In this document: positions 1 through 19,667 of the stretch, in pieces
Layout of the letters: each line of letters begins with the position of its first letter
How positions within the stretch are numbered: the stretch's first letter is position 1
IMG/VR virus record: IMGVR_UViG_2526164599_000006
Direction: 5' to 3' (one strand)
Length of the DNA: 51,662 nt
From: a virus
Taxonomy: Duplodnaviria > Heunggongvirae > Uroviricota > Caudoviricetes
Notes under the pieces: generated by a model
Databases searched by the model: none
The model's input: the letters and a program-made list of their open reading frames with translations, nothing else
What the model was told of the DNA's origin: nothing
Program-made: the position numbers and the translations under genes

Positions 1-1131
1 TCAAATGACCAGTTTTTTCCATTCCTTACCGCGTGCGTCGTTGTAAATATCGGTCATTTTTTGATTCGAATGGCCCAGCAAAATTTTGGTATCAACCCCC
101 TGCTCTCTGAACAATCGCTCTGATAAAGATCTCTGCTCATGGAAAGAGGGAGGGGTGCCATTAGCACGCCAGTTGTAATCCACAGAATCCCGGGCTTTTT
201 TAAATGCAACGGTTAATGTTGCTGGCTTAACCATCCCGCCGCGCTTAGCTGTCCCTTTCGCGTGATGGTGGTGCAATAGCCACGGACTAAGAACGCAATC
301 GCGGCAGGATGACACCACATCATCCAGGGTGAGATTTAATTTATCGCAACGCAGAGCCAGAGGGATGGCAATCCGGGTTCCTGTTTTTTGCTGTTCGACA
401 TGAAGATAACCATCCCGGATATCCGAAAATTGCATTTTGAAAATATCTGAAAGGCGCTGGCCTGTCATCAGTGCCAGCAGCATACCGCGCTGTAAAAAGT
501 AACCATCCTTTTCCGCTGCGTTATAAATCATCATCCACTCATCAAAAGTCAGTCGCTGTCTTGATATCCGCACCTGCGGTTTTTTTGCCGATTCTGCAGG
601 GTTAAAGCCTGGCGGGACATCGCCCGTTTGCTGAGCTTCCCGGAAAACATCGATCAGTACTTTCCTGAAAATTTGTCCCATTCTGTTATGTCCTCTGGCC
701 TTGTACTCTTCCAGTACTGATACCACATCTTTTACGGTTATGGCATCTAACGGTCTGGTGCCAAAACGTTCATCAAATACCCTGAGAGGGGCCGCTTTCT
801 GTTTCAGCGTGTTGAGTTTGATCTCGCCGTTTTCATATCTTTCCTGTTGAATTTTTCTGTAATTATTCAGAAAAATGGTAACGGTTGATGAACCGCCGGT
901 ATCACTAATAATTTTCTCCTGCAGACTGAGCATTTGTTCCATTTGCTGCCGGGCAAGACGGCTGTTCGCTTCTGCTGCAATAGTTTCTGCCAGTTTCTGG
1001 TCAATACTGCCGAGACCGTGATTTTTGCCTGTTATGGGATGCCTGTAACGCCAGTAAACTTTGTTATTTCTTTTGTCAAAATACGGAGATAATCCCGGAA
1101 CATCGGTTTTATATTTTCGCGGGCGCGCCAT
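1..1131 (-). CDS. int: phage integrase, tyrosine recombinase family
   Basis: 376-aa ORF; C-terminal region (HHHHAKGTAKRG...LLGHSNQKMTDIYNDARGK) has the layout of lambda-type integrase catalytic domain; sits at prophage end next to an excisionase-like gene. Confidence 0.9.
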   Translation of the reverse strand: MARPRKYKTDVPGLSPYFDKRNNKVYWRYRHPITGKNHGLGSIDQKLAETIAAEANSRLARQQMEQMLSLQEKIISDTGGSSTVTIFLNNYRKIQQERYENGEIKLNTLKQKAAPLRVFDERFGTRPLDAITVKDVVSVLEEYKARGHNRMGQIFRKVLIDVFREAQQTGDVPPGFNPAESAKKPQVRISRQRLTFDEWMMIYNAAEKDGYFLQRGMLLALMTGQRLSDIFKMQFSDIRDGYLHVEQQKTGTRIAIPLALRCDKLNLTLDDVVSSCRDCVLSPWLLHHHHAKGTAKRGGMVKPATLTVAFKKARDSVDYNWRANGTPPSFHEQRSLSERLFREQGVDTKILLGHSNQKMTDIYNDARGKEWKKLVI

Positions 1132-1357
1132 CTTCCAGTATCCTCTTCAAAGCAGGGTGATCTGTGGCGATCACCTCCGGCTTGTTTACCATTCCGACAA
1201 AGCGAGCTTGCGGATCCACTCGCCAGCGTCTTCCAACTTTTTTGGGGAGAGGAAATATCATTCCGGCTTTAGCGTATTTACTTAACGTACTCGGAGTAGG
1301 GACCGGTTCACTGAATTCCTCTTTTGCCCACTCAGTGAGCAGAATAAGTCTTGCCAT
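1109..1357 (-). CDS. xis: excisionase-like small DNA-binding protein
   Basis: 82-aa ORF overlapping int start; basic, winged-helix-like sequence (TLSKYAKAGMIFPLPKKVGRRWRV) typical of Xis/AlpA-type proteins. Confidence 0.7.
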   Translation of the reverse strand: MARLILLTEWAKEEFSEPVPTPSTLSKYAKAGMIFPLPKKVGRRWRVDPQARFVGMVNKPEVIATDHPALKRILEDGAPAKI

Positions 1358-1421
1358 GAGCGTCGTTCGCTAATCATGGTCGCCGCCACTATAGCTGGTG
1401 GGCAACGACCGGGGTTGAACA

Positions 1422-3893
1422 TTAAAAATCAGCCTGATTCGGGATCAGTTTTTGCCAGATAGCTGAAACGTATTTTGCCTGGTAACGGGCATCATCCAGC
1501 GCATTGTGGCGCTCACCTTCGAATGGGATAGCAGTTCTGGCATCGAAGTCTACGGCTTTCCCCAGCTCAACGATTGTGCGTACATCGCGATCGTTGCAGT
1601 AGCGCCACGGGCAGGGGATACCCTGTCGTTCGTATGAACGGCGCAAAATCGTGTTGTCGAAGTTGGCCCCATTACCCCAGACCTGAACAAAAAACTCACC
1701 GGAGTTTTCGTCGATAAATTCCCGCAATTGCAGTAGTGCATCATCTAACGGGATTTCATCGGTCATAATGGCAGACTGCGCTTCACGTGATTGCTTCAGC
1801 CACCATTTAATGACGTCACGATCAATGACTCCGCCAGCAGTATCCAGATCGATGGTCTTGCTAAATTCTGGTCCCATATCTCCGGTTTGCGGATCGAAAA
1901 ATATTGCGCCTATTGAGATAATCGGGGCATCGGGATTTTTTCCCATGGTTTCAAGGTCGATCATTAGATGGTCACACGTCCTGCTGGTGGATGTGATAAC
2001 GTGATGACCGTTCATCGTAATTAAGGGATCTGCCGTCTCGCCAGTTTCACTATCGCTGGCGTGATCCTGAGCGCTACCAGCATTCTCCTTGTGTGGATGT
2101 TCAGCGCCTTCCATTTCCTTCGGATCATTTTCCTGAACTTCAACCTGATTCTCTTCATCGAATGTTTCCTGGTATGTTGCGTCACCCATCACCGCGCCAC
2201 AATCAGGGCAGTTGCCGCCACCGCTTTGACCGCAGGCGGTGCAGACTTTTTCCGGTTCCTGTTGCGCTACTGGCTCAGGTTGTTTCGTTTCTGGCTCGTT
2301 TTGTTGCGTATTTGGGCTGTTTTGTTCCGCTTTCTGGTCGTTCTGTTCCGATTCTTGCTGGTTCTGGTTTACAGAATCGCGGGTTTCAATCCCCTTTACC
2401 CATTTCGGATCATTCGGGTCGCTAATCCCTGCAACAAATTCTCCGCGAGAGGCAGCAAGCAACTTATCGGCGTCAGGCTGGCTGATATTGGCTGCCTGCA
2501 TAATTTTGTTTACTTCGTCAGCGGTAACTTTTACCGGCTCTGGTTGTGCGGTCGTGTCAGATGCACCAGTATTTTGTTGTGAACCTGAGTACGTGCCGTT
2601 TTTACGTGCGAAGTATTCCTCTTTTGTGATTTCCGTAGCTCCCAAGGCTAGTGCTTTTTCCAGACCAGAAAGTTTGTTTGCGCGACCGTATTTTTCGCCA
2701 TCCTTGTCGGTGAAGAGGAAGTAGAACGGCCCCTCACGCTCTACAGATGGTTCGACTTCCACTTTGCATTCGGTTTTTTCGTTGCCCGGAATTGCCGTTT
2801 CCACTGCATCAGTTTCTGGTACTGGCGACGAGAGAGTATCAGTTGCGCTCTGATTTCTTCCTTCATCTTCAAACACGCCCTTTGTAGTCAGGTATTCAGT
2901 AATGTATTTGTTCAGTGCCACAGGGTCTTTGTGAATGTCGATCGGACGTTCACGGACAAGGCCAAAAATAGTCTGGCGGTCGTAGCGAAGGGCATCAGGC
3001 TGTTTGCGCATTGATGCCGAGATACGCTTCCAGTCTTCGCGGTCGTTGTCGATAACTTCATTTTTTGCCCAGCGATGGATGCTGCCGTCAATGTTTCCGG
3101 CATCCACATCACCAGGCCAGAGAGCGTAGGCCAGTTCGTCATCCAGTGTTTTCCATGTCTGCTTGTATTCGCGATGAATGGCAGCAATGACCGGGCTGAT
3201 TTTTCCTGTTGAATTTTCACTGTGCTGTTGATTGGTTCTGGCGCGGGCGAGATCAACAACAGACGTGTATTTTCCGGTTTCCTTGCGTTCACCTTCGCGA
3301 CGTTTTTTCCAGATGCGCATCTCTGCCTGAATTTCGGGCCATTTGGCACCAGGCTTACATTTATGCTTAACCCACCCGATGGCATGCAGCTTAAGCTCCG
3401 GATACATGGCGTTAACTTCTGGCATTTTCATCAACGCTTCAACGATATGTCCGTCGAATGTTGCCATGTCTTCCTGCAACAATTCCTGTGCGCTAATAAC
3501 CATATCAACGGTGATGTTTTCACATGTGTCGAACTTAACCATGACAGCGTTCTGTACTTCAGGGGCCAGCTTGTCAAAAGTGACGTTCATCGGATCGGAT
3601 TCAGTCTCAACCGGGACAAAGGAAGCAGACTCCTCATCCCAGCGGTTTTCCTGCATATATTCAGCATCCCAGGAATCGAGGGCAGGGCGGGGTATACCGG
3701 GTTTATCCTCGCAGACAAGAAATTTATAAGCGCAGTCCTGAGCAGCCGGATAATGCTCCAGGAATTGCCAGTGAAATTTTGCGCGGGCGCGACGTTCATC
3801 ACCGGCTTCAATGGCAGTGGCTACAGCGACGGCACCTTCTTCCTTTATTGCCTGTTCGTCCGGAATGGCGGCGCAAATAAAGACTTTACTCAT
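1422..3893 (-). CDS. putative exonuclease, C-terminal DEDD-type 3'-5' exonuclease domain (class often annotated exodeoxyribonuclease VIII in prophages)
   Basis: 823-aa ORF; C-terminus has DnaQ-like motifs (DLETMG..., FDNTILRR..., HNALDDARY); central low-complexity Q/E/N-rich linker and a CxxC...CxxC zinc-ribbon. Confidence 0.65.
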   Translation of the reverse strand: MSKVFICAAIPDEQAIKEEGAVAVATAIEAGDERRARAKFHWQFLEHYPAAQDCAYKFLVCEDKPGIPRPALDSWDAEYMQENRWDEESASFVPVETESDPMNVTFDKLAPEVQNAVMVKFDTCENITVDMVISAQELLQEDMATFDGHIVEALMKMPEVNAMYPELKLHAIGWVKHKCKPGAKWPEIQAEMRIWKKRREGERKETGKYTSVVDLARARTNQQHSENSTGKISPVIAAIHREYKQTWKTLDDELAYALWPGDVDAGNIDGSIHRWAKNEVIDNDREDWKRISASMRKQPDALRYDRQTIFGLVRERPIDIHKDPVALNKYITEYLTTKGVFEDEGRNQSATDTLSSPVPETDAVETAIPGNEKTECKVEVEPSVEREGPFYFLFTDKDGEKYGRANKLSGLEKALALGATEITKEEYFARKNGTYSGSQQNTGASDTTAQPEPVKVTADEVNKIMQAANISQPDADKLLAASRGEFVAGISDPNDPKWVKGIETRDSVNQNQQESEQNDQKAEQNSPNTQQNEPETKQPEPVAQQEPEKVCTACGQSGGGNCPDCGAVMGDATYQETFDEENQVEVQENDPKEMEGAEHPHKENAGSAQDHASDSETGETADPLITMNGHHVITSTSRTCDHLMIDLETMGKNPDAPIISIGAIFFDPQTGDMGPEFSKTIDLDTAGGVIDRDVIKWWLKQSREAQSAIMTDEIPLDDALLQLREFIDENSGEFFVQVWGNGANFDNTILRRSYERQGIPCPWRYCNDRDVRTIVELGKAVDFDARTAIPFEGERHNALDDARYQAKYVSAIWQKLIPNQADF

Positions 3894-3985
3894 TTTGTTT
3901 TACCTCATTACAGATTTAAGGGTGAACAAATCCCTGCCATTGCTGGCATATAAGAATGAAACCGGATATTTATTACGGAACTGTT

Positions 3986-4231
3986 TTAAAGACCTGCCGG
4001 GATTTCGTTATTATCCTGGTGAATAACTTTATCGACCGGGTAACAGTTACCGGGAATTTTCTGTTCGGTTGCTGCAGTCACACACTCCTGCATTGTCCTG
4101 TGAACACTGACTGCAATATCAACTGGCTCTCCGGAAACAAGAAAAACTGTCAGAACAAGTGCAAATGCTGTATTCATTGCCAGCATCCTTTTTGTATCGG
4201 ACGTAAACGGGCCAGCATTGAAAGAATGCAT
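3986..4231 (-). CDS. hypothetical small protein with N-terminal hydrophobic segment
   Basis: 81-aa ORF; possible internal start at Met16 (MLAMNTAFALVLTVFLVSG, start 4186); no recognisable family. Confidence 0.3.
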   Translation of the reverse strand: MHSFNAGPFTSDTKRMLAMNTAFALVLTVFLVSGEPVDIAVSVHRTMQECVTAATEQKIPGNCYPVDKVIHQDNNEIPAGL

Positions 4232-4467
4232 ATTTTATTTAATAGCTCCCGTTCGTGTTTTCTCTTGTTAATGGCATCTTCAGTAAATACAGGGTTACTG
4301 ATAGTGACACCAATTTCAAAACAACCTTCAGACGTATTAACGTTTGGTAATAACGTTTCCATTATCGCGTCCTCAACAATGAATTTTGTGATGCGGTGCC
4401 TGGTGCCTCCAGGTGACGTTAACCAGTTAACAATTAACGCCGGATACAGAGAATCCACCCATAACAC
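4174..4467 (-). CDS. hypothetical protein
   Basis: 97-aa ORF in early-left operon orientation; no recognisable family. Confidence 0.3.
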   Translation of the reverse strand: MLWVDSLYPALIVNWLTSPGGTRHRITKFIVEDAIMETLLPNVNTSEGCFEIGVTISNPVFTEDAINKRKHERELLNKICILSMLARLRPIQKGCWQ

Positions 4468-4892
4468 TGTTTTTGGTTTTAACTGTTCCGCGTGCGCTCA
4501 GCCGCATTCACCACATCACAAAATTCACTTTAAAAAGGGCGGCAGAGCAGTCACGGAGTAAAACTGATACCGCCAAACGTCACCAGAAAATTGATAACAG
4601 AGGGCGTTGCAGCGGGGTTGTCACTTAAGCGTATGGTCAACCTGACAACCCGGTGTCCTCAACGGGGGAAGGAATAACCCCGCCATACTTACCGCCGCGC
4701 CATTTCGCGGATTGCCACAACCGGAAGCGCACGGTCGACGAAAATTTAACGACAGGCTATCTATGAACCAGCTACCTCGCCGTGCGCTTTCGCGTTATGG
4801 TCTGACTTTTCAGGGAAATATCCTTTCAGTAAACTTGTCAACGCCAAGATTATTGGCCGTTTTTCGCCATTTTTAATGTCCGCTATTGGTCA

Positions 4893-6859
<1,967 letters not shown>

Positions 6860-7057
6860 GAGTGTTCCCTTTGTGGTGTAGGAACCTTAAGGAAACAACA
6901 TGTTGGGTGGAGCGGACAATCCAAATGGTGAATTACTGTCTTATATCATTGGCGCTGACAAACTGTCAGTGCCGGATTCTTATCCGTGTCCGGCGCACGA
7001 CCACACGCTGTCACGAGAGGTCTCCATTCTCAACCAGTAACCTCAATGGAGGATAAA

Positions 7058-7252
7058 ATGTCAGAGCAGGAGTTAAAACTTGGTGCATGTTATTGTGTTC
7101 TCAAGGAGCTGGTACACATGCTTCCATCTACTCAGTATCAACAGTTAGTTGGCAATTTAAATCAGCGAATCGAAGCTATGTTAAAATCTGATGGTTTTAA
7201 TAACGTAGAAACGCTGATGCTAAAAAGATATCTTGATGGATTAATCAGATAA
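7058..7252 (+). CDS. hypothetical small protein
   Basis: 64-aa ORF (MSEQELKLGACYCVLKEL...) with strong RBS GGAGG at 7048..7052; convergent with neighbouring minus-strand gene; adjacent to IS21 end. Confidence 0.4.
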   Translation: MSEQELKLGACYCVLKELVHMLPSTQYQQLVGNLNQRIEAMLKSDGFNNVETLMLKRYLDGLIR

Positions 7253-7591
7253 CATTTTTTTACGGCGTTCATATTCGTTAATATTTATGAAGCCTGTTGC
7301 CAGAAGCAGTTCGTTAATTTCATGGTTGTTTGGCTGTTTCTGGCTCTTTGAGCTGGGATCTTCCACTTCTTTTTCTGCAAATTGTTTTGCTGTATCCTCT
7401 GTGCCATGGATATTTAAAGCTGTATCTGAAAACAGCCCAGTAAACGCATCGCGCACATTACGAGCCATATTATCAGTGTCTTTTTTTGTTACCGATTCCA
7501 ATTCAAGTTCGTTCAGACGATGACGAAGTGTGTGTGCTGCAATCTCCTGGATTGAAGGAGGTAAATCTTTAAATTCCATCGTCAACCTCAT
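7241..7591 (-). CDS. hypothetical early-left protein
   Basis: 116-aa ORF; acidic, no recognisable family. Confidence 0.4.
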   Translation of the reverse strand: MRLTMEFKDLPPSIQEIAAHTLRHRLNELELESVTKKDTDNMARNVRDAFTGLFSDTALNIHGTEDTAKQFAEKEVEDPSSKSQKQPNNHEINELLLATGFININEYERRKKMLSD

Positions 7592-7830
7592 CAGTCAGTG
7601 TTTCTTGCTAACCAGCGATGCGCACCAGCTGCGGTTTTAAACGTTTTACTTTTGGTATACGTCATCGCGGTGAAGGTGCCGTCCTGGTTAGGGAACACAC
7701 CGCATACCAGAGATTCGTTGTTGCCAAGATTGAGCGTATCCATGTTGACCTCATTTCCCCTTAACGCCGGGGTAGCGGAACAAAAAACCTGCTGCGCTGT
7801 TATACAAAGTGTTCCCGCCGTCATGTTCAT
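7591..7830 (-). CDS. hypothetical small protein
   Basis: 79-aa ORF; likely real start at internal Met (MDTLNLGNNES..., about 7743); abuts the downstream gene. Confidence 0.35.
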   Translation of the reverse strand: MNMTAGTLCITAQQVFCSATPALRGNEVNMDTLNLGNNESLVCGVFPNQDGTFTAMTYTKSKTFKTAAGAHRWLARNTD

Positions 7831-7922
7831 ACGCCTCGGGCTGGCTACTTAACCCCTGACCACTGCCGGGTAACTCGAAGTATTTCCCTGCGTTCTGTGG
7901 GGCGGGGTGGGTTGGTATTTTT

Positions 7923-7950
7923 AGTTTAATAAACATTAAACTTAAGTCAA
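7923..7950 (-). promoter_or_regulatory. candidate leftward early promoter/operator (pL-like)
   Basis: Minus-strand TTGACT (7945..7950) and TAAACT (7923..7928) with 16-bp spacer; region is an imperfect inverted copy of the pR-like region at 8937..8966. Confidence 0.3.
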
Positions 7951-8034
7951 GTAAAAACTAAACCGCGGGGCATAACAAACACAACGCTTTTGATAAAGTC
8001 GTTGCGGTTGTTATGTTTCTATTGGTAGTGAAAG

Positions 8035-8313
8035 TTAGGGAAACTGGCGTCTTGCGTGGATCACGTTTACTACTTCAACGCTTGATGTTGTTACGCGGTA
8101 TAGAATTATATAGTTAGGGTGGGCTACAATCTCACGCAAGCCAGGTACTCTGTCGCTTGGTGGGTATAAATACGGATGTTCGGATAACGGCAGCACACAA
8201 CCCCTTAATCGCTGCCATAAGCGTTCAGCCGCATCTATGTCGAAACGAGCAATATAACTAGTTATATCATCTAGGTCGGTATCTGCGCTTTCAAGCCATA
8301 ACACGGGTAACAT
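8035..8313 (-). CDS. parE2: ParE-family toxin (ParE2-like)
   Basis: 92-aa product from internal Met of the 124-aa ORF (MLPVLWLESADTDLDD...HPNYIILYRV...); start overlaps stop of upstream antitoxin with 1-nt spacing. Confidence 0.8.
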   Translation of the reverse strand: MLPVLWLESADTDLDDITSYIARFDIDAAERLWQRLRGCVLPLSEHPYLYPPSDRVPGLREIVAHPNYIILYRVTTSSVEVVNVIHARRQFP

Positions 8314-8314
8314 T

Positions 8315-8506
8315 TTACTGCTTGCTCCGTTCCTTACGCATCTTAGCAAAGCGTTCTGCCATTCTGCGCTCAACTTCGTCATGGGGAATTGCTGGGCGCG
8401 GATCTGCAAGGCTCGTTGCTACTTTCGCACGCAGCCATTCGTTGTAACTGTTTTCTTGTTCAATGGTTTCAAATTCAGAAACCATTGGTGAAAGGGCTCT
8501 ATTCAT
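8315..8506 (-). CDS. paaA2: PaaA2-like antitoxin
   Basis: 63-aa product (MNRALSPMVSEFETIEQENSYNEWLRAK...) immediately upstream of parE-like gene; matches remembered PaaA2 of the E. coli O157:H7 paaR2-paaA2-parE2 system. Confidence 0.7.
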   Translation of the reverse strand: MNRALSPMVSEFETIEQENSYNEWLRAKVATSLADPRPAIPHDEVERRMAERFAKMRKERSKQ

Positions 8507-8526
8507 GTTTCCTCCGGTTTTATAAC

Positions 8527-8805
8527 TCAGGCGCGGCGGCATTTTTGCGCCGCAATCCATCTCGCTATGAGATCTTCCATTGATTCTTTTTTCTGCTTTA
8601 ACTCGCTGATTATCTGGCGTTGCTCATCCTCAGGGAAGGCTGAAAAAATCTGCAATAATTCCAGTTGATTAGACGTTAACCCTGCATGTGGTGGAGAAAC
8701 CCCCGGTTGTTCTGCGTATTCCGCATCCAGATACCCTTCCGGCATCCCGTATGTTTGCTCTATTCTTCTGGCAGCCTTTTCTCCAAACGAGGCTCTCCCA
8801 CTCAT
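8527..8805 (-). CDS. repressor-like regulator (PaaR2/CI-like), N-terminal HTH region apparently out of frame
   Basis: 92-aa ORF from ATG 8805; the same frame continues upstream without a start codon and encodes HTH-like residues (EIRRLRLKEWFKDKTLPPKEKSYLSQL); an ATG at 8897 is in another frame separated by an A7 tract (8887..8893). Confidence 0.5.
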   Translation of the reverse strand: MSGRASFGEKAARRIEQTYGMPEGYLDAEYAEQPGVSPPHAGLTSNQLELLQIFSAFPEDEQRQIISELKQKKESMEDLIARWIAAQKCRRA

Positions 8806-8936
8806 TAGTTGAGATAGGTAGCTCTTCTCTTTGGGTGGCAGAGTTTTATCTTTAAACCACTCCTTGAGACGTAAACGGCGAATTTCTTTTTTTGCATGTG
8901 GTAATTATCTTTAGTAATCACTAAACAAGCAAATAC

Positions 8937-8966
8937 TTGACTTAATGGTTTATTAAACACTAAACT
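8937..8966 (+). promoter_or_regulatory. candidate rightward early promoter/operator (pR-like)
   Basis: TTGACT (8937..8942) and TAAACT (8961..8966); three CACTAAAC repeats at 8919, 8958, 8977; RBS GAGGAAGG before ATG 8995. Confidence 0.35.
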
Positions 8967-8994
8967 CGCAAAAAAACACTAAACCGAGGAAGGT

Positions 8995-9297
8995 ATGACA
9001 TTAAAAGAGTTTATTAAATCATTAAGGGTTGGTGATGCTAAGAAATTCGCGGCCAGACTTGGTGTATCGCCATCTTACTTATCGCAAATGGCGTCTGGAC
9101 GAACAGCTATATCTCCAACCCGCGCCCTTATGATCGAATCTGCGACGGAAGGCCAAGTAAGTAGGGCGGAGCTACGACCCCATGATTGGGAGCTTATTTG
9201 GCCTGAGTATGCGAGCGGCATTCGTTTGGGGCAAACACATGTAGTTCATGCTGAAGGTGATTGTAGTACATGCTTATCTGATGGAGTTGATTCATGA
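8995..9297 (+). CDS. Cro/YdaS-like HTH regulator
   Basis: 100-aa ORF with XRE-type HTH (FAARLGVSPSYLSQMASGRTAIS); first gene of rightward operon, divergent from repressor-like gene. Confidence 0.7.
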   Translation: MTLKEFIKSLRVGDAKKFAARLGVSPSYLSQMASGRTAISPTRALMIESATEGQVSRAELRPHDWELIWPEYASGIRLGQTHVVHAEGDCSTCLSDGVDS

Positions 9298-9719
9298 AAA
9301 TCAAGCATGAACACATCCGCATGGCGATGAATGTCTGGGCGCATCCGGACGGCGAAAAAGTACCGGCTGCGAAAATTACCAAAGCGTATTTCGAGCTGGG
9401 AATGACGTTCCCGGAACTGTATGACGACAGCCATCCGGAAGCCCTGGCCCGTAATACCCAGAAAATTTTCCGTTGGCTGGATAAAGACACCCCTGATGCT
9501 GTTGAAAAAATGCAGGCTCTGTTACCGGCGATCGAAAAGGCGATGCCGCCTTTGCTGGTGGCCCGTATGCGCAGCCACAGTTCTGAATATTACCGTGAGA
9601 TCGTCGAACGGAGGGATCGGCTGGTGAAGGATGTCGATGATTTTGTTGCGTCAGCGGTTGTTTTGTATGACCAGATGAATCGCGGCGGCCCGGCAGGGAA
9701 TGCTGTGGTGATGCACTAA
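9294..9719 (+). CDS. YdaT-like protein (CII-position regulator)
   Basis: 141-aa ORF beginning MKIKHEHI, as remembered for Rac YdaT; overlaps stop of upstream gene. Confidence 0.6.
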   Translation: MKIKHEHIRMAMNVWAHPDGEKVPAAKITKAYFELGMTFPELYDDSHPEALARNTQKIFRWLDKDTPDAVEKMQALLPAIEKAMPPLLVARMRSHSSEYYREIVERRDRLVKDVDDFVASAVVLYDQMNRGGPAGNAVVMH

Positions 9720-10744: not shown

Positions 10745-11167
10745 GTGGCAAAAGTTTTTACACAAGAAGAGCGGGAAAAAATTAAAGGGCTGATCGTGGA
10801 ATTCGTACGCCTTAACGGACGAGGCACGATTCGGCAGTTATCGGATGAAATTGGTGTCAGTCATGCGTCTGTCGGTCGTTTATGCATGGAGCTGGCCGCC
10901 AGTGGTGATGTTTACAATTCCGGTTACGGAGTATTCCCGTCTGAGCAGGCGCGCAAGGACTGGCAAAACGCCCGCAAAAAACTCTCAAGGGCAAAGCTGA
11001 AGAAACCATCTGTGGTTGATCCGGACCTTATCTGGCTATTACCAGACGGCGAAATACGCCGCTACGACAGGCGTCAGAACATAATCTGTCGCGAGTGCCG
11101 GAAGAGCGAAGTTATGCAGCGCATATTGTCGTTTTATCAGGGTAATTTTCAGGAGGTAGCGCAGTGA
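10745..11167 (+). CDS. hypothetical protein with HTH-like segment
   Basis: 140-aa ORF, GTG start preceded by GGAGGG; RQLSDEIGVSHASVGRL resembles an HTH. Confidence 0.45.
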   Translation: MAKVFTQEEREKIKGLIVEFVRLNGRGTIRQLSDEIGVSHASVGRLCMELAASGDVYNSGYGVFPSEQARKDWQNARKKLSRAKLKKPSVVDPDLIWLLPDGEIRRYDRRQNIICRECRKSEVMQRILSFYQGNFQEVAQ

Positions 11168-11658
11168 GTGCACCGGCAACCATTCTTGATATGTGCTGTG
11201 GCAGCCGCATGTTCTGGTTCGATAAGAATGACGACCGGGCGATATTTAGCGATATCAGAAAGGAAGAGCACACATTATGTGATGGACGAAGACTGATAAT
11301 TAGCCCTGACCTGATAGCAGATTTTCGTGCATTACCATTTGCAGACGCATCGTTTCCGGTGGTTGTATTCGACCCTCCGCATCTTGAGCGTGTTGGTGAT
11401 AACGCCTGGATGGGAAAGAAATATGGACGGCTGAATAAAGATACCTGGCGTGATGATTTGCGGCAGGGATTTAAAGAAGCCTTTCGTGTGTTGCGGCCAT
11501 ACAGCGTTCTGATTTTTAAATGGAATGAAACGCAAATACCTGTTCGCCAGATATTGGCACTGACCGACAGAAAGCCTGTTATCGGTCAACGAACAGGAAA
11601 GGGTGACAAGACCCACTGGATTATTTTTATGAAGGAGGCGACCAGTGAGCAAGATTGA
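11164..11658 (+). CDS. small phage Dam-like DNA N6-adenine methyltransferase (putative)
   Basis: 164-aa ORF with glycine-rich motif (DMCCGSRMFWFD) and DPPH variant of the DPPY catalytic motif (VVVFDPPHLERV). Confidence 0.5.
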   Translation: MSAPATILDMCCGSRMFWFDKNDDRAIFSDIRKEEHTLCDGRRLIISPDLIADFRALPFADASFPVVVFDPPHLERVGDNAWMGKKYGRLNKDTWRDDLRQGFKEAFRVLRPYSVLIFKWNETQIPVRQILALTDRKPVIGQRTGKGDKTHWIIFMKEATSEQD

Positions 11659-15788: not shown

Positions 15789-16181
15789 GTGCGGGTATTA
15801 CTTCGACCTGTTCTGGTACCGGAACTCGGGCTGGTGATCGTTAAGCCGGGCCGTGAATCCATGCCGGTATTCCACAATACCCGGGTACTGGTGGAGCCGG
15901 AACCGAAAAGCATGCGTAATCTGCCGTCCGGGGTCGTTCCTGCCGTTCGCCAGCCGCTGGCGGAGGATAAATCATTACTGCCATTTTTCAGCGACGAACG
16001 AGTGATTCGTGCTGCTGGTGGCGCTGGCGCATTGTCTGACTGGTTACTGCGCCATGTTAAATCCTGCCAGTGGCCACACGGCGATTATCACCACAGTGAA
16101 ACCGTCATTCACCGTTATGGTACCGGCGCAATGGTGTTGTGCTGGCACTGCGACAACCAGTTGCGTGACCAGACCTCCTAA
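15789..16181 (+). CDS. hypothetical protein with Cys/His cluster
   Basis: 130-aa ORF; CQWPHGDYHH...CWHCDN. Confidence 0.35.
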   Translation: MRVLLRPVLVPELGLVIVKPGRESMPVFHNTRVLVEPEPKSMRNLPSGVVPAVRQPLAEDKSLLPFFSDERVIRAAGGAGALSDWLLRHVKSCQWPHGDYHHSETVIHRYGTGAMVLCWHCDNQLRDQTS

Positions 16182-16220: not shown

Positions 16221-16838
16221 ATGATTGACGTCATTCGTCACGCAATGAATGGCACACAGGAGCGTGAATTATCGCTGGCTGAATTATCCTGGTGGGCGGC
16301 CTGCAATCAGGTGGTGGATGCACTACCTGAGGCAGTAGCGCGTCGTTCGCTGGGATTACCAGCGGAAAAAATCCGCTCCGTATACCGTGAGAGTGACATC
16401 GTACCGGGAGAACAGACAGCCATCAGCATACTGAAGCAGCGCACAAAAAATATTGCGCTGCCACTTCACGTCCACCAGCAACAAAATCCACCACAGGAAA
16501 AGACGGTGGTCAGCATTGCCGTTGATCCGGAGTCTCCGGAATCCTTCATGAAACGACCTAAACGTCGCCGCTGGGTTAACGAGAAATACACGCGCTGGGT
16601 GAAGACACAGCCGTGTGCGTGTTGTGGTAAGCCAGCCGACGATCCCCATCACCTGATTGGTCATGGTCAGGGCGGAATGGGGACAAAATCTCACGATATT
16701 TTCACGCTACCGCTGTGTCGGGAGCATCACAACGAGCTTCATGCGGATCCGCTGGCGTTCGAAGAAAAGCATGGCTCTCAGGTTGATTTAATTTTTCGTT
16801 TTCTTGATCACGCCTTTGCAACCGGCGTGCTCGGGTAA
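16221..16838 (+). CDS. DUF968-like protein with HNH-type motif
   Basis: 205-aa ORF; C-terminal CACCGK...DPHHLIGH...CREHHNELH; sits upstream of rusA as YdfU does in Qin. Confidence 0.5.
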   Translation: MIDVIRHAMNGTQERELSLAELSWWAACNQVVDALPEAVARRSLGLPAEKIRSVYRESDIVPGEQTAISILKQRTKNIALPLHVHQQQNPPQEKTVVSIAVDPESPESFMKRPKRRRWVNEKYTRWVKTQPCACCGKPADDPHHLIGHGQGGMGTKSHDIFTLPLCREHHNELHADPLAFEEKHGSQVDLIFRFLDHAFATGVLG

Positions 16839-16850
16839 AAGAGGTTACTG

Positions 16851-17225
16851 ATGCGTATAGAGTTTGTTTTGCCTTACCCGCCGACGGTGAACACCTACTG
16901 GCGACGTCGTGGCAGCACATATTTTGTATCAAAAGCCGGTGAGCGTTATCGCCGGGCTGTGGCGCTTATTGTTCGCCAGCAGCGGCTGAAATTAAGCCTG
17001 TCCGGAAGGCTGGCGATAAAGATTATTGCCGAGCCACCGGATAAGCGCCGCCGTGACCTGGACAATATTCTGAAAGCGCCGCTGGATGCGCTGACGCATG
17101 CGGGGTTGCTAATGGACGATGAGCAGTTTGATGAAATCAATATCGTTCGTGCTCAGCCAGTATCTGGTGGACGTCTGGGGGTGAAGATTTACCCCATAAT
17201 GCTTGCAGGGCAGGTCAAAAAATGA
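16851..17225 (+). CDS. rusA: Holliday junction resolvase RusA
   Basis: 124-aa ORF with RusA hallmarks (DxDN core RRRDLDNILKAPLDALT). Confidence 0.85.
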   Translation: MRIEFVLPYPPTVNTYWRRRGSTYFVSKAGERYRRAVALIVRQQRLKLSLSGRLAIKIIAEPPDKRRRDLDNILKAPLDALTHAGLLMDDEQFDEINIVRAQPVSGGRLGVKIYPIMLAGQVKK

Positions 17226-18617: not shown

Positions 18618-19667
18618 ATGCTTAATACTGTAAAAATATCCAGTTGTGAGTTAATCAACGCCGACTGCCTGGAATTTATCCGGTCGTTACCCGAAAATTC
18701 TGTTGACCTGATAGTCACGGACCCGCCGTACTTTAAAGTGAAGCCTGAGGGCTGGGATAACCAGTGGAAGGGCGACGATGATTACCTGAAGTGGCTGGAC
18801 CAGTGTCTGGCGCAGTTCTGGCGGGTGCTGAAACCTGCCGGAAGTCTTTACCTGTTCTGTGGTCATCGCCTGGCATCTGATATCGAAATCATGATGCGTG
18901 AACGCTTCAGTGTGCTGAACCATATTATCTGGGCGAAGCCGTCCGGACGCTGGAACGGATGCAACAAGGAAAGCCTGCGGGCGTATTTCCCCGCCACAGA
19001 GCGCATTCTGTTCGCGGAACATTATCAGGGGCCGTATCGTCCGAAAGATGCCGGGTATGCGGCGAAGGGCAGTGCACTGAAACAGCATGTGATGGCCCCG
19101 CTGATTTCTTACTTTCGTGATGCGCGCGTGGCCCTGGGGATAACGGCAAAACAGATTGCAGATGCCACAGGAAAGAAAAACATGGTGTCGCACTGGTTCA
19201 GTGCCAGTCAGTGGCAGCTACCGAACGAAAGCGATTATCTGAAATTACAGTCGCTGTTTGCCCGGGTGGCAGAAGAGAAACATCAGCGCGGTGAACTGGA
19301 AAAGCCCCACCACCAGCTGGTGGATACGTATACGTCACTGAACCGGCAGTATGTGGAGCTGCAGAGTGAATATAAGCATCTGCGGCGGTATTTTGGTGTG
19401 ACGGCGCAGGTGCCGTACACGGATGTGTGGACACATAAACCGGTGCAGTTCTATCCCGGGAAACATCCGTGCGAAAAACCGGCAGAAATGCTGCAGCAGA
19501 TAATCAGCGCAAGCAGTCGTCCGGGTGACCTGGTTGCAGATTTTTTTATGGGCTCAGGTTCAACGGTAAAAGCTGCACTGGCGCTCGGGCGTCGTGCGAT
19601 TGGCGTTGAACTGGAGACCGGACGTTTTGAGCAGACAGTCAGGGAAGTTCAGGATTTAATCGTTTGA
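18618..19667 (+). CDS. DNA N6-adenine methyltransferase (orphan, phage-encoded)
   Basis: 349-aa ORF with DPPY catalytic motif (LIVTDPPYF) near the N-terminus and SAM-binding motif (DFFMGSGST) near the C-terminus. Confidence 0.8.
   Translation: MLNTVKISSCELINADCLEFIRSLPENSVDLIVTDPPYFKVKPEGWDNQWKGDDDYLKWLDQCLAQFWRVLKPAGSLYLFCGHRLASDIEIMMRERFSVLNHIIWAKPSGRWNGCNKESLRAYFPATERILFAEHYQGPYRPKDAGYAAKGSALKQHVMAPLISYFRDARVALGITAKQIADATGKKNMVSHWFSASQWQLPNESDYLKLQSLFARVAEEKHQRGELEKPHHQLVDTYTSLNRQYVELQSEYKHLRRYFGVTAQVPYTDVWTHKPVQFYPGKHPCEKPAEMLQQIISASSRPGDLVADFFMGSGSTVKAALALGRRAIGVELETGRFEQTVREVQDLIV

What the first reader, a model, noticed from the sequence alone, without database searches (positions are those of the whole stretch)
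1422..3893. Recombination module is a single large DEDD-type exonuclease without recognisable annealase
The early-left operon encodes an 823-aa protein with a C-terminal DnaQ-like exonuclease domain, a zinc-ribbon and a Q/E/N-rich linker, but no obvious RecT/Bet/Erf-type partner or Gam is evident nearby. An annealase gene may have been lost or interrupted by the IS21 insertion.
Basis: inference. Interest (0 to 1): 0.35.

Follow-up and report, generated by a model that had tools for sequence, protein, structure and literature searches.

The report
RecE scaffold carrying a 3'-5' exonuclease
The 823-residue prophage gene is intact and very common: it is a RecE-like protein whose usual 5'-3' nuclease and partner annealase gene (recT) were replaced long ago by a DexA-type 3'-5' exonuclease domain, so the missing annealase is the normal state of this phage lineage and was not caused by the nearby IS21 insertion.

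Summary
Window 1422..3893 (-) is an intact 823-aa ORF with an Rv2179c/DexA-type DEDDh domain (aa 642-813; D646, E648, D746, H796, D801), a Q/E/N-rich linker and a CxxC...CxxC motif. No RecT, Bet, Erf, Sak or Gam was found in the window.

The IS21 explanation is refuted. The IS (4836..6960) is a simple insertion with a 4-bp duplication (AACT) and no deletion. Contigs with the identical protein but no IS, and isolated phages (mEp460_ev081, Tritos), share the gene order int-xis-exo-ydfD-dicB and show no annealase.

Residues 246-626 are homologous to the RecE N-terminal/central region, ending at the start of the RecE nuclease domain. In 43 species-level loci with this scaffold:
- 29 end in a RecE PD-(D/E)XK nuclease, and all 29 have recT next door.
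- 10 end in DEDDh, and none has recT.
- 4 end in a domain that structure search assigns to Rad52/Erf-type annealases.

The N-terminal 470 residues show no annealase fold.

Most likely this is a 3'-5' DNA exonuclease on a RecE-type scaffold, not half of an exonuclease-annealase pair. Its biological role is unknown. The DEDDh-coding DNA occurs in 4086 of 5426 complete E. coli genomes; K-12 ydfE appears to be a truncated remnant.

The parts
1422..3893 (-). Intact 823-aa gene: RecE-type scaffold fused to a DEDDh 3'-5' exonuclease (PHROG 2082; Pfam YdfE_N + YdfE_C + Rv2179c-like)
3279..3893 (-). aa 1-205: N-terminal alpha/beta plus helical domain (YdfE_N type). Confident AF2 model, no match to any solved fold or any Pfam family in the local copy
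   Evidence: the same N-terminal type occurs with a RecE nuclease plus recT in L022
2859..3161 (-). aa 245-345: helical domain homologous to the RecE central region (NCBIfam PRK09709 positions about 271 onward)
2589..2741 (-). aa 385-435: small beta-alpha domain (GPFYF...GRANKL...EI..EEY), invariant across the N1-type family
2400..2462 (-). aa 478-498: conserved short motif LAAsRGEFVaGISDPNDPKW, shared by DEDDh, RecE-nuclease and many type-3 scaffold proteins. It coincides with the DNA-level mosaic joints
2016..2474 (-). aa 474-626: linker 74% identical to Rac-SA53 RecE 471-616, containing the Q/E/N-rich tract. It ends where the RecE nuclease domain would begin
2199..2243 (-). aa 551-565: CxxC-x7-CxxC putative zinc ribbon, also present in K-12-type RecE
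   Evidence: sub-threshold zinc-ribbon hits
1455..1970 (-). aa 642-813: DEDDh (DnaQ-like) exonuclease domain, Rv2179c-like/DexA family. Catalytic residues D646, E648, D746, H796, D801
1109..1357 (-). Excisionase, immediately downstream of the exonuclease gene. There is no room for an annealase gene
1..1131 (-). Integrase (prophage at the ompW site)
3986..4231 (-). YdfD / DUF1482, the upstream operon neighbour
4174..4467 (-). DicB cell-division inhibitor (annotated CDS is the last 62 codons)
4537..4588 (-). DicF sRNA
   Evidence: 76.7 bits, gathering score 48
4836..6960 (-). IS21-family element (istA 5687..6859, istB 4893..5690). Simple insertion with TSD AACT at 4832-4835 and 6961-6964. Not part of the exonuclease feature and no gene was lost

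Best explanation
The gene encodes a RecE-derived chimera. It keeps the RecE-type N-terminal/central scaffold: a YdfE_N-type N-terminal domain, a RecE-homologous helical domain, a conserved GISDPNDPKW motif, an acidic/Q-rich linker and a Cys4 motif. The RecE 5'-3' PD-(D/E)XK nuclease domain, together with the adjacent recT gene, has been replaced by a DexA/Rv2179c-type DEDDh domain.

Shown:
- the architecture, the intact catalytic residues and the homology boundaries;
- the strict association across species of nuclease type with presence or absence of recT;
- conservation of the annealase-less arrangement in IS-free relatives and in isolated phages;
- that IS21 removed nothing.

Inferred:
- The protein is a metal-dependent 3'-5' exonuclease acting on DNA.
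- The shared scaffold brings it to the same target that RecE uses, such as DNA ends or a host factor.
- It is made from the early-left (dicBF-type) operon after induction.
- Because 3'-5' digestion removes the 3' tails that annealases and RecA need, it is not the nuclease half of a single-strand-annealing pair. It more likely trims or degrades 3' ends.
- Candidate roles are degradation of host or competitor-phage DNA, as shown for T4 DexA and E. coli EcD, or 3'-flap and end processing during phage DNA metabolism.
- Any recombination the phage needs would use host RecA pathways and the phage RusA resolvase (16851..17225).
For: Architecture:
- Pfam and PHROG matches.
- Precomputed Pfam architecture YdfE_N + YdfE_C + Rv2179c-like.
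- The only solved relative by sequence is T4 DexA, 8KEL.
- DEDDh residues are invariant.

RecE ancestry:
- BLASTP aligns aa 262-626 to RecE 278-592, E 5e-64. aa 474-626 are 74% identical to Rac-SA53 RecE 471-616.
- The NCBIfam RecE model matches positions 271-603 only, 283 bits against a cut-off of 1269.

Module swapping:
- A sister form in vB_EcoS-689R5 has the full RecE N-terminus (model positions 1-602) plus DEDDh, and no recT.
- L022 has this window's N-terminal type (86% identical) plus a RecE nuclease plus recT.
- DNA homology breaks at about aa 454-498 and at aa 626.

Comparative test on 43 loci from different species:
- 29 of 29 PD-(D/E)XK forms have recT immediately downstream.
- 0 of 10 DEDDh forms have it. 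In most of those the next large ORFs are of excisionase and integrase size and position. These ORFs were assigned functions only in the window's own lineage.
- The small neighbours show no annealase family.

IS21 is a clean insertion. Isolated phages share the gene order.

DNA substrate precedent: T4 DexA and the E. coli homologue EcD degrade DNA, and EcD protects against T4 (PMC12153337).

N-terminal 470 aa:
- AF2 gives confident domains with no Foldseek hit in the PDB at E <= 0.001.
- No Pfam hit even at E <= 10.
Against: - No biochemical data exist for this protein. Polarity and substrate (DNA or RNA) are inferred from family membership. The founding member of PF16473, Rv2179c, is an exoribonuclease, and NCBI often names these proteins 3'-5' exoribonuclease.
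- The scaffold's function is unknown even in RecE (PMC11611040), so 'delivery to the same target' is conjecture.
- The DexA residues reported for 5hmC recognition (W152, D169) align to C766 and A780 here, so the EcD-type mechanism may not apply.
- The gene lies in an operon that is repressed in lysogens in the K-12 Qin model. A standing defence role would need leaky or separate expression.
- Annealases of unknown fold cannot be excluded among the uncharacterised small ORFs.
Confidence: 0.75

Rival explanations
1. One reading: this was a normal exonuclease-annealase recombination module, and its annealase was deleted or disrupted by the IS21 insertion.
For: An IS21-family element lies 370 bp upstream of dicB in the same operon. 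Lambdoid phages usually keep exo/bet or recE/recT in this position.
Against: - The IS has intact inverted-repeat ends and a 4-bp target duplication.
- IS-free contigs with the identical exonuclease match the window up to both IS junctions, with no extra sequence at the site.
- mEp460_ev081, Tritos and O157:H7 prophages lack both the IS and any annealase.
- 0 of 10 DEDDh loci in other species carry recT.
Confidence: 0.02
2. The annealase is hidden inside the protein: the N-terminal 626 residues carry a cryptic single-strand annealing activity, making the protein a self-sufficient recombinase.
For: - Full-length RecE outperforms its nuclease domain in linear-linear recombination (PMC11611040), so the shared scaffold contributes something to recombination.
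- A sister family (type 3) fuses this scaffold to an annealase-like domain, showing that fusions of this kind occur.
Against: - The same scaffold in all 29 RecE-type loci is accompanied by a separate recT.
- In type 3 the annealase-like part is a distinct C-terminal domain, not the scaffold.
- The AF2 model of aa 1-470 has no Rad52, Redbeta, RecT or Erf match in the PDB.
- No Pfam hit at E <= 10.
Confidence: 0.05
3. It is a prophage-encoded defence nuclease of the HREX/EcD kind, a DexA homologue that selectively destroys the modified DNA of superinfecting T-even-like phages.
For: - The C-terminal domain is a DexA homologue.
- A stand-alone E. coli homologue, EcD, degrades 5hmC DNA and protects against T4 (PMC12153337).
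- The domain-coding DNA is in 4086 of 5426 complete E. coli genomes and absent from K-12, as that paper notes for DexA homologues.
- Neighbouring genes (dicB, parE/paaA2) are accessory host-interaction genes.
Against: - EcD starts MIDTET and ends TIPETY according to its cloning primers. It is a different, stand-alone protein.
- The reported 5hmC-recognition residues W152 and D169 align to C766 and A780. The tetramer residue D90, replaced by Ala in EcD, is retained here as D718.
- The gene sits in the repressed early-left operon.
- This reading does not explain the 626-residue RecE scaffold.
Confidence: 0.15
4. It is an exoribonuclease, as Rv2179c is, that processes or degrades RNA during lytic growth. 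Targets could be host transcripts or the operon's own DicF precursor.
For: The Pfam family is named for an RNase. NCBI names many members 3'-5' exoribonuclease. DicF RNA is processed from the same transcript.
Against: - The characterised phage and E. coli relatives, DexA and EcD, act on DNA.
- The scaffold comes from a DNA exonuclease and is interchangeable with DNA nuclease or annealase domains.
Confidence: 0.08

Closest known systems
RecE (exodeoxyribonuclease VIII) of the Rac prophage, with RecT
   Same: Same genomic position between xis/int and the kil/dicB-type genes. Homologous central region and linker: aa 246-626 match RecE model positions 271-603, with up to 74% identity including the Cys4 motif and the GISDPNDPKW motif. 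Some sister proteins share the entire RecE N-terminus.
   Different: The C-terminal PD-(D/E)XK 5'-3' nuclease is absent and replaced by a DEDDh domain of predicted opposite polarity. There is no recT. The first 245 residues are a different N-terminal type.
T4 DexA (exonuclease A; PDB 8KEL/8KEN) and E. coli EcD (HREX)
   Same: Same DEDDh family with all catalytic residues conserved. DexA is the only solved structure found by sequence.
   Different: Only about 24-27% identical. DexA and EcD are stand-alone proteins of about 190-230 aa, whereas here the domain is the C-terminus of an 823-aa scaffold protein. W152 and D169 are not conserved and D90 is retained.
Mycobacterium tuberculosis Rv2179c (founder of PF16473)
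   Same: Strong Pfam match over the full model, positions 2-177 of 177.
   Different: Rv2179c is a stand-alone cellular exoribonuclease. Nothing links it to phages or to a RecE scaffold.
YdfE of the E. coli K-12 Qin prophage
   Same: The Pfam families YdfE_N and YdfE_C cover the N-terminal part of this protein. Qin has the same dicF-dicB-ydfD-ydfE order.
   Different: From my own knowledge, not re-tested here: K-12 ydfE is a roughly 300-residue remnant cut off by an IS, so it lacks the linker and the exonuclease domain.
Scaffold-annealase fusions (PHROG 2489), annotated 'exodeoxyribonuclease VIII' in Enterobacter, Salmonella, Pantoea and Erwinia
   Same: Same YdfE_N/YdfE_C scaffold, about 42% identical over the first 440 residues, and the same operon position.
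   Different: The C-terminal domain is not a nuclease. It has a Rad52/Erf-like SSAP fold by Foldseek against BFVD, with weak Rad52_Rad22 Pfam hits. It is followed by a Mu Gam-like gene.

Membership tests
RecE / exodeoxyribonuclease VIII (NCBIfam PRK09709; Pfam Exonuc_VIII PF06630) | C-terminal PD-(D/E)XK 5'-3' nuclease domain | tested here: not met
   No PF06630 hit. The NCBIfam score is 283 bits against a cut-off of 1269, covering model positions 271-603 only. No BLASTP match to either RecE nuclease type.
RecE / exodeoxyribonuclease VIII (NCBIfam PRK09709; Pfam Exonuc_VIII PF06630) | Homologous N-terminal/central region | tested here: met
   aa 262-626 align with RecE 278-592, E 5e-64. aa 474-626 are 74% identical to Rac-SA53 RecE.
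RecE / exodeoxyribonuclease VIII (NCBIfam PRK09709; Pfam Exonuc_VIII PF06630) | Adjacent recT partner gene | tested here: not met
   xis follows directly. tblastn of two RecT types against the window found nothing. 0 of 10 DEDDh loci have recT, against 29 of 29 RecE loci.
DEDDh (DnaQ-like) exonucleases, Rv2179c-like family PF16473 | Family HMM match above the curated threshold | tested here: met
   221 bits against a cut-off of 27, E 1.2e-65, aa 642-813.
DEDDh (DnaQ-like) exonucleases, Rv2179c-like family PF16473 | Catalytic Asp-Glu-Asp-Asp plus His residues | tested here: met
   D646, E648, D746, H796 and D801 are invariant in alignment A1 and align with DexA D7, E9, H186 and D191.
DEDDh (DnaQ-like) exonucleases, Rv2179c-like family PF16473 | 3'-5' exonuclease activity | not testable with these tools
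   Needs an enzyme assay.
HREX (EcD/DexA-type exonuclease specific for 5hmC DNA) | Residues reported for 5hmC recognition (DexA W152, D169) | tested here: not met
   They align to C766 and A780 in the MAFFT alignment. The alignment in this segment is gapped, so the result is of moderate reliability.
HREX (EcD/DexA-type exonuclease specific for 5hmC DNA) | Loss of the tetramer-forming Asp (DexA D90, Ala in EcD) | tested here: not met
   D718 is retained at the aligned column.
HREX (EcD/DexA-type exonuclease specific for 5hmC DNA) | Protection against T4-like phages | not testable with these tools
   Needs plaque or growth assays.
Phage exonuclease-annealase recombination pair (Red, RecET type) | 5'-3' dsDNA exonuclease of the lambda Exo/RecE/YqaJ type | tested here: not met
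   No PD-(D/E)XK nuclease was found in the gene. tblastn with lambda Exo and the RecE nuclease found nothing elsewhere in the window.
Phage exonuclease-annealase recombination pair (Red, RecET type) | Adjacent single-strand annealing protein (RecT/Redbeta, Erf, Rad52/Sak, Sak4) | tested here: not met
   Pfam and PHROG scans of all neighbours and early genes found none. tblastn was negative. The N-terminal fold search was negative.
Pfam YdfE_N / YdfE_C architecture | Hits to PF27430 and PF27432 | tested here: met
   These are precomputed hits listed for this exact protein. The models are not in the local Pfam copy, so they could not be rerun.

The most novel reading that the evidence does not exclude
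The YdfE/RecE N-terminal scaffold may be a general delivery platform that enterobacterial temperate phages combine with interchangeable DNA-end effectors. Three are seen: a 5'-3' PD-(D/E)XK nuclease with RecT, a fused Rad52/Erf-like annealase with a Gam-like partner, or a 3'-5' DEDDh exonuclease alone. The conserved GISDPNDPKW motif would be the docking site for a common, still unidentified host or DNA target. On this reading the DEDDh form is a third, uncharacterised mode of phage DNA-end processing, for example destruction of the 3' tails of host or rival recombination intermediates. It would be carried by prophages in about three quarters of E. coli genomes.
Probability: 0.3. Interest if true: 0.65.

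Novelty: new variant of a known kind. Interest (0 to 1): 0.45.

Why it matters
This is one of the most widespread prophage genes in E. coli. Its DEDDh-coding DNA is found in 4086 of 5426 complete genomes, with up to 7 copies per genome, yet it has no assigned role and is variously labelled exonuclease, exodeoxyribonuclease VIII or exoribonuclease.

Three consequences follow from showing that it is a RecE scaffold with a swapped nuclease of predicted opposite polarity and a consistent absence of recT:
- It corrects the idea that these prophages carry a damaged RecET-type module.
- It warns against transferring the name 'exonuclease VIII' by N-terminal similarity.
- It gives a handle on the long-unexplained N-terminal two thirds of RecE. 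The same scaffold serves three different effector domains, so its function should be separable and testable.

It also offers a candidate link to the recently described DexA/EcD nuclease defence.

Tried and rejected
- IS21-mediated loss: rejected by the empty-site comparison.
- Annealase among the small flanking ORFs: none found by Pfam or PHROGs in the window or in related DEDDh loci.
- Annealase fold in the N-terminal domain: the AF2 model searched with Foldseek against the PDB gave no hit at E <= 0.001. Pfam at E <= 10 was empty.
- Sequence search of the PDB with the whole protein found only DexA.
- Stand-alone DEDDh homologues as habitual partners of annealases: in five diverse phages, none was annotated next to an annealase.
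- Identity with EcD of the HREX paper: the cloning primers show a different stand-alone protein, MIDTET...TIPETY.
- Gifsy-1 RNA-repair paper (PMC9879122), checked for a link to an exoribonuclease: unrelated genes.
- Promoter and terminator scan of 1000-4900: counts at chance level, uninformative.
- Literature searches for Rv2179c in phages, YdfE and PF16473 found no functional study. One search was wasted on word-start matching of 'RecE'.
- Type-3 C-terminal domain: profile search of the PDB, Foldseek against the PDB with the full-length model and hhalign against ul36 Sak were all negative. Only Foldseek against BFVD and sub-threshold Pfam Rad52_Rad22 hits support the annealase assignment.
- The search for related loci with the broad alignment A2 failed for lack of conserved columns. 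It worked with the subset A3.
Full report
**1. What is in the window**

ORF 1422..3893 on the minus strand is 823 aa long.
- It matches PHROG 2082 ('exonuclease') over all 823 positions.
- The identical protein is encoded on 11 public contigs, so it is an intact gene.
- In the local Pfam copy only the C-terminus is recognised: PF16473 Rv2179c-like 3'-5' exoribonuclease domain, aa 642-813, E 1.2e-65.
- The only solved structure related by sequence is T4 DexA, 8KEL/8KEN.
- Aligned with DexA and five stand-alone phage homologues, the DEDDh residues are invariant: D646, E648, D746, H796, D801.
- The Q/E/N-rich tract (about aa 505-550) and a CxxC-x7-CxxC motif (aa 551-565) are visible in the translation. 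Zinc-ribbon models hit the motif only below threshold.

The neighbours on the same strand are:
- int (1..1131) and xis (1109..1357) downstream;
- ydfD/DUF1482 (3986..4231), dicB (4174..4467) and DicF RNA (4537..4588) upstream;
- then an IS21-family element, a DUF1391 gene, and the parE/paaA2/paaR2-like genes up to the cro-like gene at 8995.

No RecT, Redbeta, Erf, Sak, Sak4 or Gam family appears among these genes or among the early-right genes up to 20.4 kb. tblastn with RecT (two types), lambda Bet, Exo and Gam, ul36 Sak and an annealase-like domain found later gave nothing significant anywhere in the 51.6 kb.

**2. IS21 did not remove an annealase**

- Window 1-9500 is 100% identical to contig AIHI01000010 (L012).
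- Three other contigs (L013-L015) encode the identical 823-aa protein without the IS.
- They align with the window at 99.7-100% identity on both sides of the IS junctions.
- The element occupies 4836..6960, begins TGTCAACGCC and ends GGCGCTGACA, and is flanked by a 4-bp duplication, AACT. The empty site reads ...CAGTAAACTGTCAGTG....
- Nothing is missing. The insertion lies in the spacer between DicF and the next small genes.

Isolated phages mEp460_ev081 and Tritos, and O157:H7 prophages at ompW, have the order int-xis-exonuclease-ydfD-dicB-(DicF)-small ORFs-repressor and no annotated annealase.

**3. What the protein is**

BLASTP and the NCBIfam RecE model show that aa 246-626 are homologous to the N-terminal/central region of RecE.
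- aa 262-626 align with K-12-type RecE 278-592, E 5e-64.
- aa 474-626 are 74% identical to Rac-SA53 RecE 471-616.
- The RecE model matches at positions 271-603 of 877, scoring 283 bits against a cut-off of 1269.
- The homology stops close to where published work places the start of the RecE nuclease domain (residue 564 according to PMC11611040).

A sister protein in phage vB_EcoS-689R5 has the whole RecE N-terminus (model positions 1-602) followed by the same DEDDh domain, again without recT. True RecE genes in Rac-type phages are followed by recT. Newer Pfam families precomputed for this protein are YdfE_N and YdfE_C. The K-12 Qin gene ydfE therefore appears to be the truncated N-terminal remnant of such a gene; the truncation itself is from my own knowledge.

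**4. Family-wide test**

An exhaustive HMMER search of 1.84 billion representative proteins with aa 1-640 found only 247 clusters, so this is a narrow, mainly enterobacterial family. Among 47 long representatives:
- 19 carry Exonuc_VIII;
- 10 carry the PDDEXK-like DUF3799;
- 6 carry Rv2179c-like;
- 1 carries a RecT domain.

Both N-terminal types occur with both nuclease types.

A scan of one genome per GTDB species with the conserved motifs returned 43 loci. I classified them by BLASTP:
- 29 loci end in a RecE-type PD-(D/E)XK nuclease. All 29 have recT immediately downstream; in a few it is pseudogenised.
- 10 loci end in DEDDh (Escherichia, Klebsiella, Kluyvera and others). None has recT within 8 kb. 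In most, the exonuclease gene is followed by ORFs of excisionase and integrase size and position. I assigned functions to these downstream ORFs only in the window's own lineage.
- 4 loci have a third kind of C-terminus.

L022 combines this window's N-terminal type (86% identical) with a RecE nuclease and recT. In the DEDDh loci, the ORFs between the repressor and the exonuclease are almost all 128 aa or shorter and match no annealase family.

At the DNA level:
- homology to L022 runs from upstream of the start codon to about aa 498;
- homology to the vB_EcoS-689R5 gene starts at about aa 454;
- homology to K-12-type recE covers only aa 475-625.

The conserved motif LAAxRGE[FY]VxGISDPNDPKW (aa 478-498) therefore sits at the joints where modules were exchanged. 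The simplest history is replacement of the 'nuclease domain plus recT' cassette by a DEDDh domain in an ancestor of this lineage.

**5. Is an annealase hidden in the N-terminus?**

AlphaFold2 with a 43-sequence alignment gave confident domains at aa 1-205 (alpha/beta plus helical), 245-345 (helical) and 385-435 (small beta-alpha), separated by disordered linkers.
- Foldseek against the PDB returned no match at E <= 0.001, and none of the 50 best-ranked matches shown was Rad52, Redbeta or RecT.
- Pfam at E <= 10 on each piece was empty.
- The same scaffold in RecE is always accompanied by a separate recT.

I therefore reject a cryptic annealase, with the caveat that a completely new annealase fold cannot be excluded.

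**6. The third family form (found in passing)**

Proteins of about 750-790 aa in Enterobacter, Salmonella, Klebsiella, Pantoea and Erwinia are named 'exodeoxyribonuclease VIII' by their sources. They share the YdfE_N/YdfE_C scaffold but have a different C-terminus (PHROG 2489/7838).
- That domain has the motif DGEAxKKSLTDAIKKALSLLGFSADVWLGLYD.
- Sub-threshold Rad52_Rad22 hits appear in 9 of 12 members, best E 0.0019.
- Foldseek against BFVD gave 13 hits at E <= 1e-3. The named ones, here and just below this cut-off, are Rad52/59/22, RAD52-like recombinase, Erf, RecT and 'single-strand annealing protein'.
- The PDB searches and hhalign against ul36 Sak were negative.
- The BFVD output does not give query coordinates.

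The assignment to the C-terminal domain is therefore probable, not proven. The next gene is a Mu Gam-like/Sipho_Gp157 protein. This suggests the scaffold serves as a carrier for different recombination-related effectors.

**7. How the window protein most likely works**

Shown: an intact DEDDh active site on a RecE-type scaffold, no annealase partner, and a position in the early-left operon.

Inferred: it is a metal-dependent 3'-5' exonuclease acting on DNA.
- The closest characterised relatives, T4 DexA and E. coli EcD, degrade DNA.
- DexA takes part in host-DNA scavenging and in double-strand-break processing during intron homing.
- EcD protects against T4 (PMC12153337).

Because 3'-5' digestion removes the 3' single strands that RecT, Redbeta and RecA act on, the protein is unlikely to be the resection half of a single-strand-annealing system.

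A direct EcD-like mechanism is uncertain:
- EcD is a different, stand-alone protein.
- DexA W152 and D169 align with C766 and A780 here, and D90 is retained as D718.

Stand-alone homologues are common in phages. tblastn found 1365 records, and in five sampled genomes none lay next to an annotated annealase. The phage still carries a RusA resolvase (16851..17225). Any recombination it needs could run through host pathways.

**8. Novelty and score**

The gene is annotated in databases, and its domain families exist in recent Pfam releases. I found no functional or evolutionary study of it.

New from this analysis, as far as these searches show:
- the RecE-scaffold/nuclease-swap reading;
- the clean 29/29 versus 0/10 association with recT;
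- the probable annealase fusion mislabelled as exonuclease VIII.

These are moderately interesting.

Noticed in passing
L023:7974-10322 (Enterobacter hormaechei); also L035-L037 and proteins P0271-P0356: Proteins annotated 'exodeoxyribonuclease VIII' share the YdfE/RecE scaffold but have no nuclease domain. Their C-terminal domain looks like a Rad52/Erf-type single-strand annealing protein: BFVD Foldseek hits down to 7.5e-11, with named SSAP hits, and sub-threshold Pfam Rad52_Rad22 hits in 9 of 12 members. The next gene is Mu Gam-like/Sipho_Gp157. This is probably a mis-annotation and a fused annealase.
   Followed up: partly
window 2400..2462 (aa 478-498): The motif LAAxRGE[FY]VxGISDPNDPKW lies in an otherwise disordered linker. 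It is nearly invariant across DEDDh, RecE-nuclease and many type-3 scaffold proteins, and it coincides with the DNA-level mosaic joints. It may be a docking motif for an unknown partner.
   Followed up: partly
window 4836..6960: IS21-family element (PGAP calls the match ISEc62-like) inserted between DicF and the ydfC-side small genes, with a 4-bp AACT target duplication. It separates dicF/dicB/ydfD/exonuclease from their upstream promoter region and may therefore silence the operon in this strain.
   Followed up: partly
window 8035..8805: ParE-toxin, PaaA2-antitoxin and PaaR2-like regulator genes (the three-component paaR2-paaA2-parE2 type) sit between the early-left genes and the cro-like gene.
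   Followed up: no
window 15789..16181 and 16221..16838: Two adjacent ORFs match the first 129 and the last 190 positions of the same 334-residue PHROG 96 ('HNH endonuclease'). This is probably one gene split by a stop codon or frameshift.
   Followed up: no
window 7241..7591: A 116-aa ORF matches only the first 101 of 212 positions of PHROG 2151. Related loci carry 124-128-aa variants with different C-termini (PHROGs 6937, 33007), so this small early gene family is itself mosaic.
   Followed up: no
window 11164..11658 and 18618..19667: Two DNA methyltransferase genes lie in the early-right/nin region. The first matches only part of its PHROG 954 profile (positions 52-206 of 229).
   Followed up: no
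L021 (labelled Veillonella parvula MAG) and L034 (labelled Roseburia MAG): These contigs carry Escherichia-type prophage genes. L021 has a DEDDh domain 95% identical to the window's, and L034 has RecE/RecT 98% identical to the E. coli forms. They are most likely binning contamination in the metagenome-assembled genomes.
   Followed up: no
L025:5196-6128 and L025:4726-5199: One DEDDh-type locus (an unnamed Enterobacteriaceae genome) has an extra 310-aa protein of unknown function (PHROG 6603) and a DUF6932 protein between the repressor and the exonuclease. These are the only ORFs of 150 aa or more in that position in any of the 10 DEDDh loci.
   Followed up: partly
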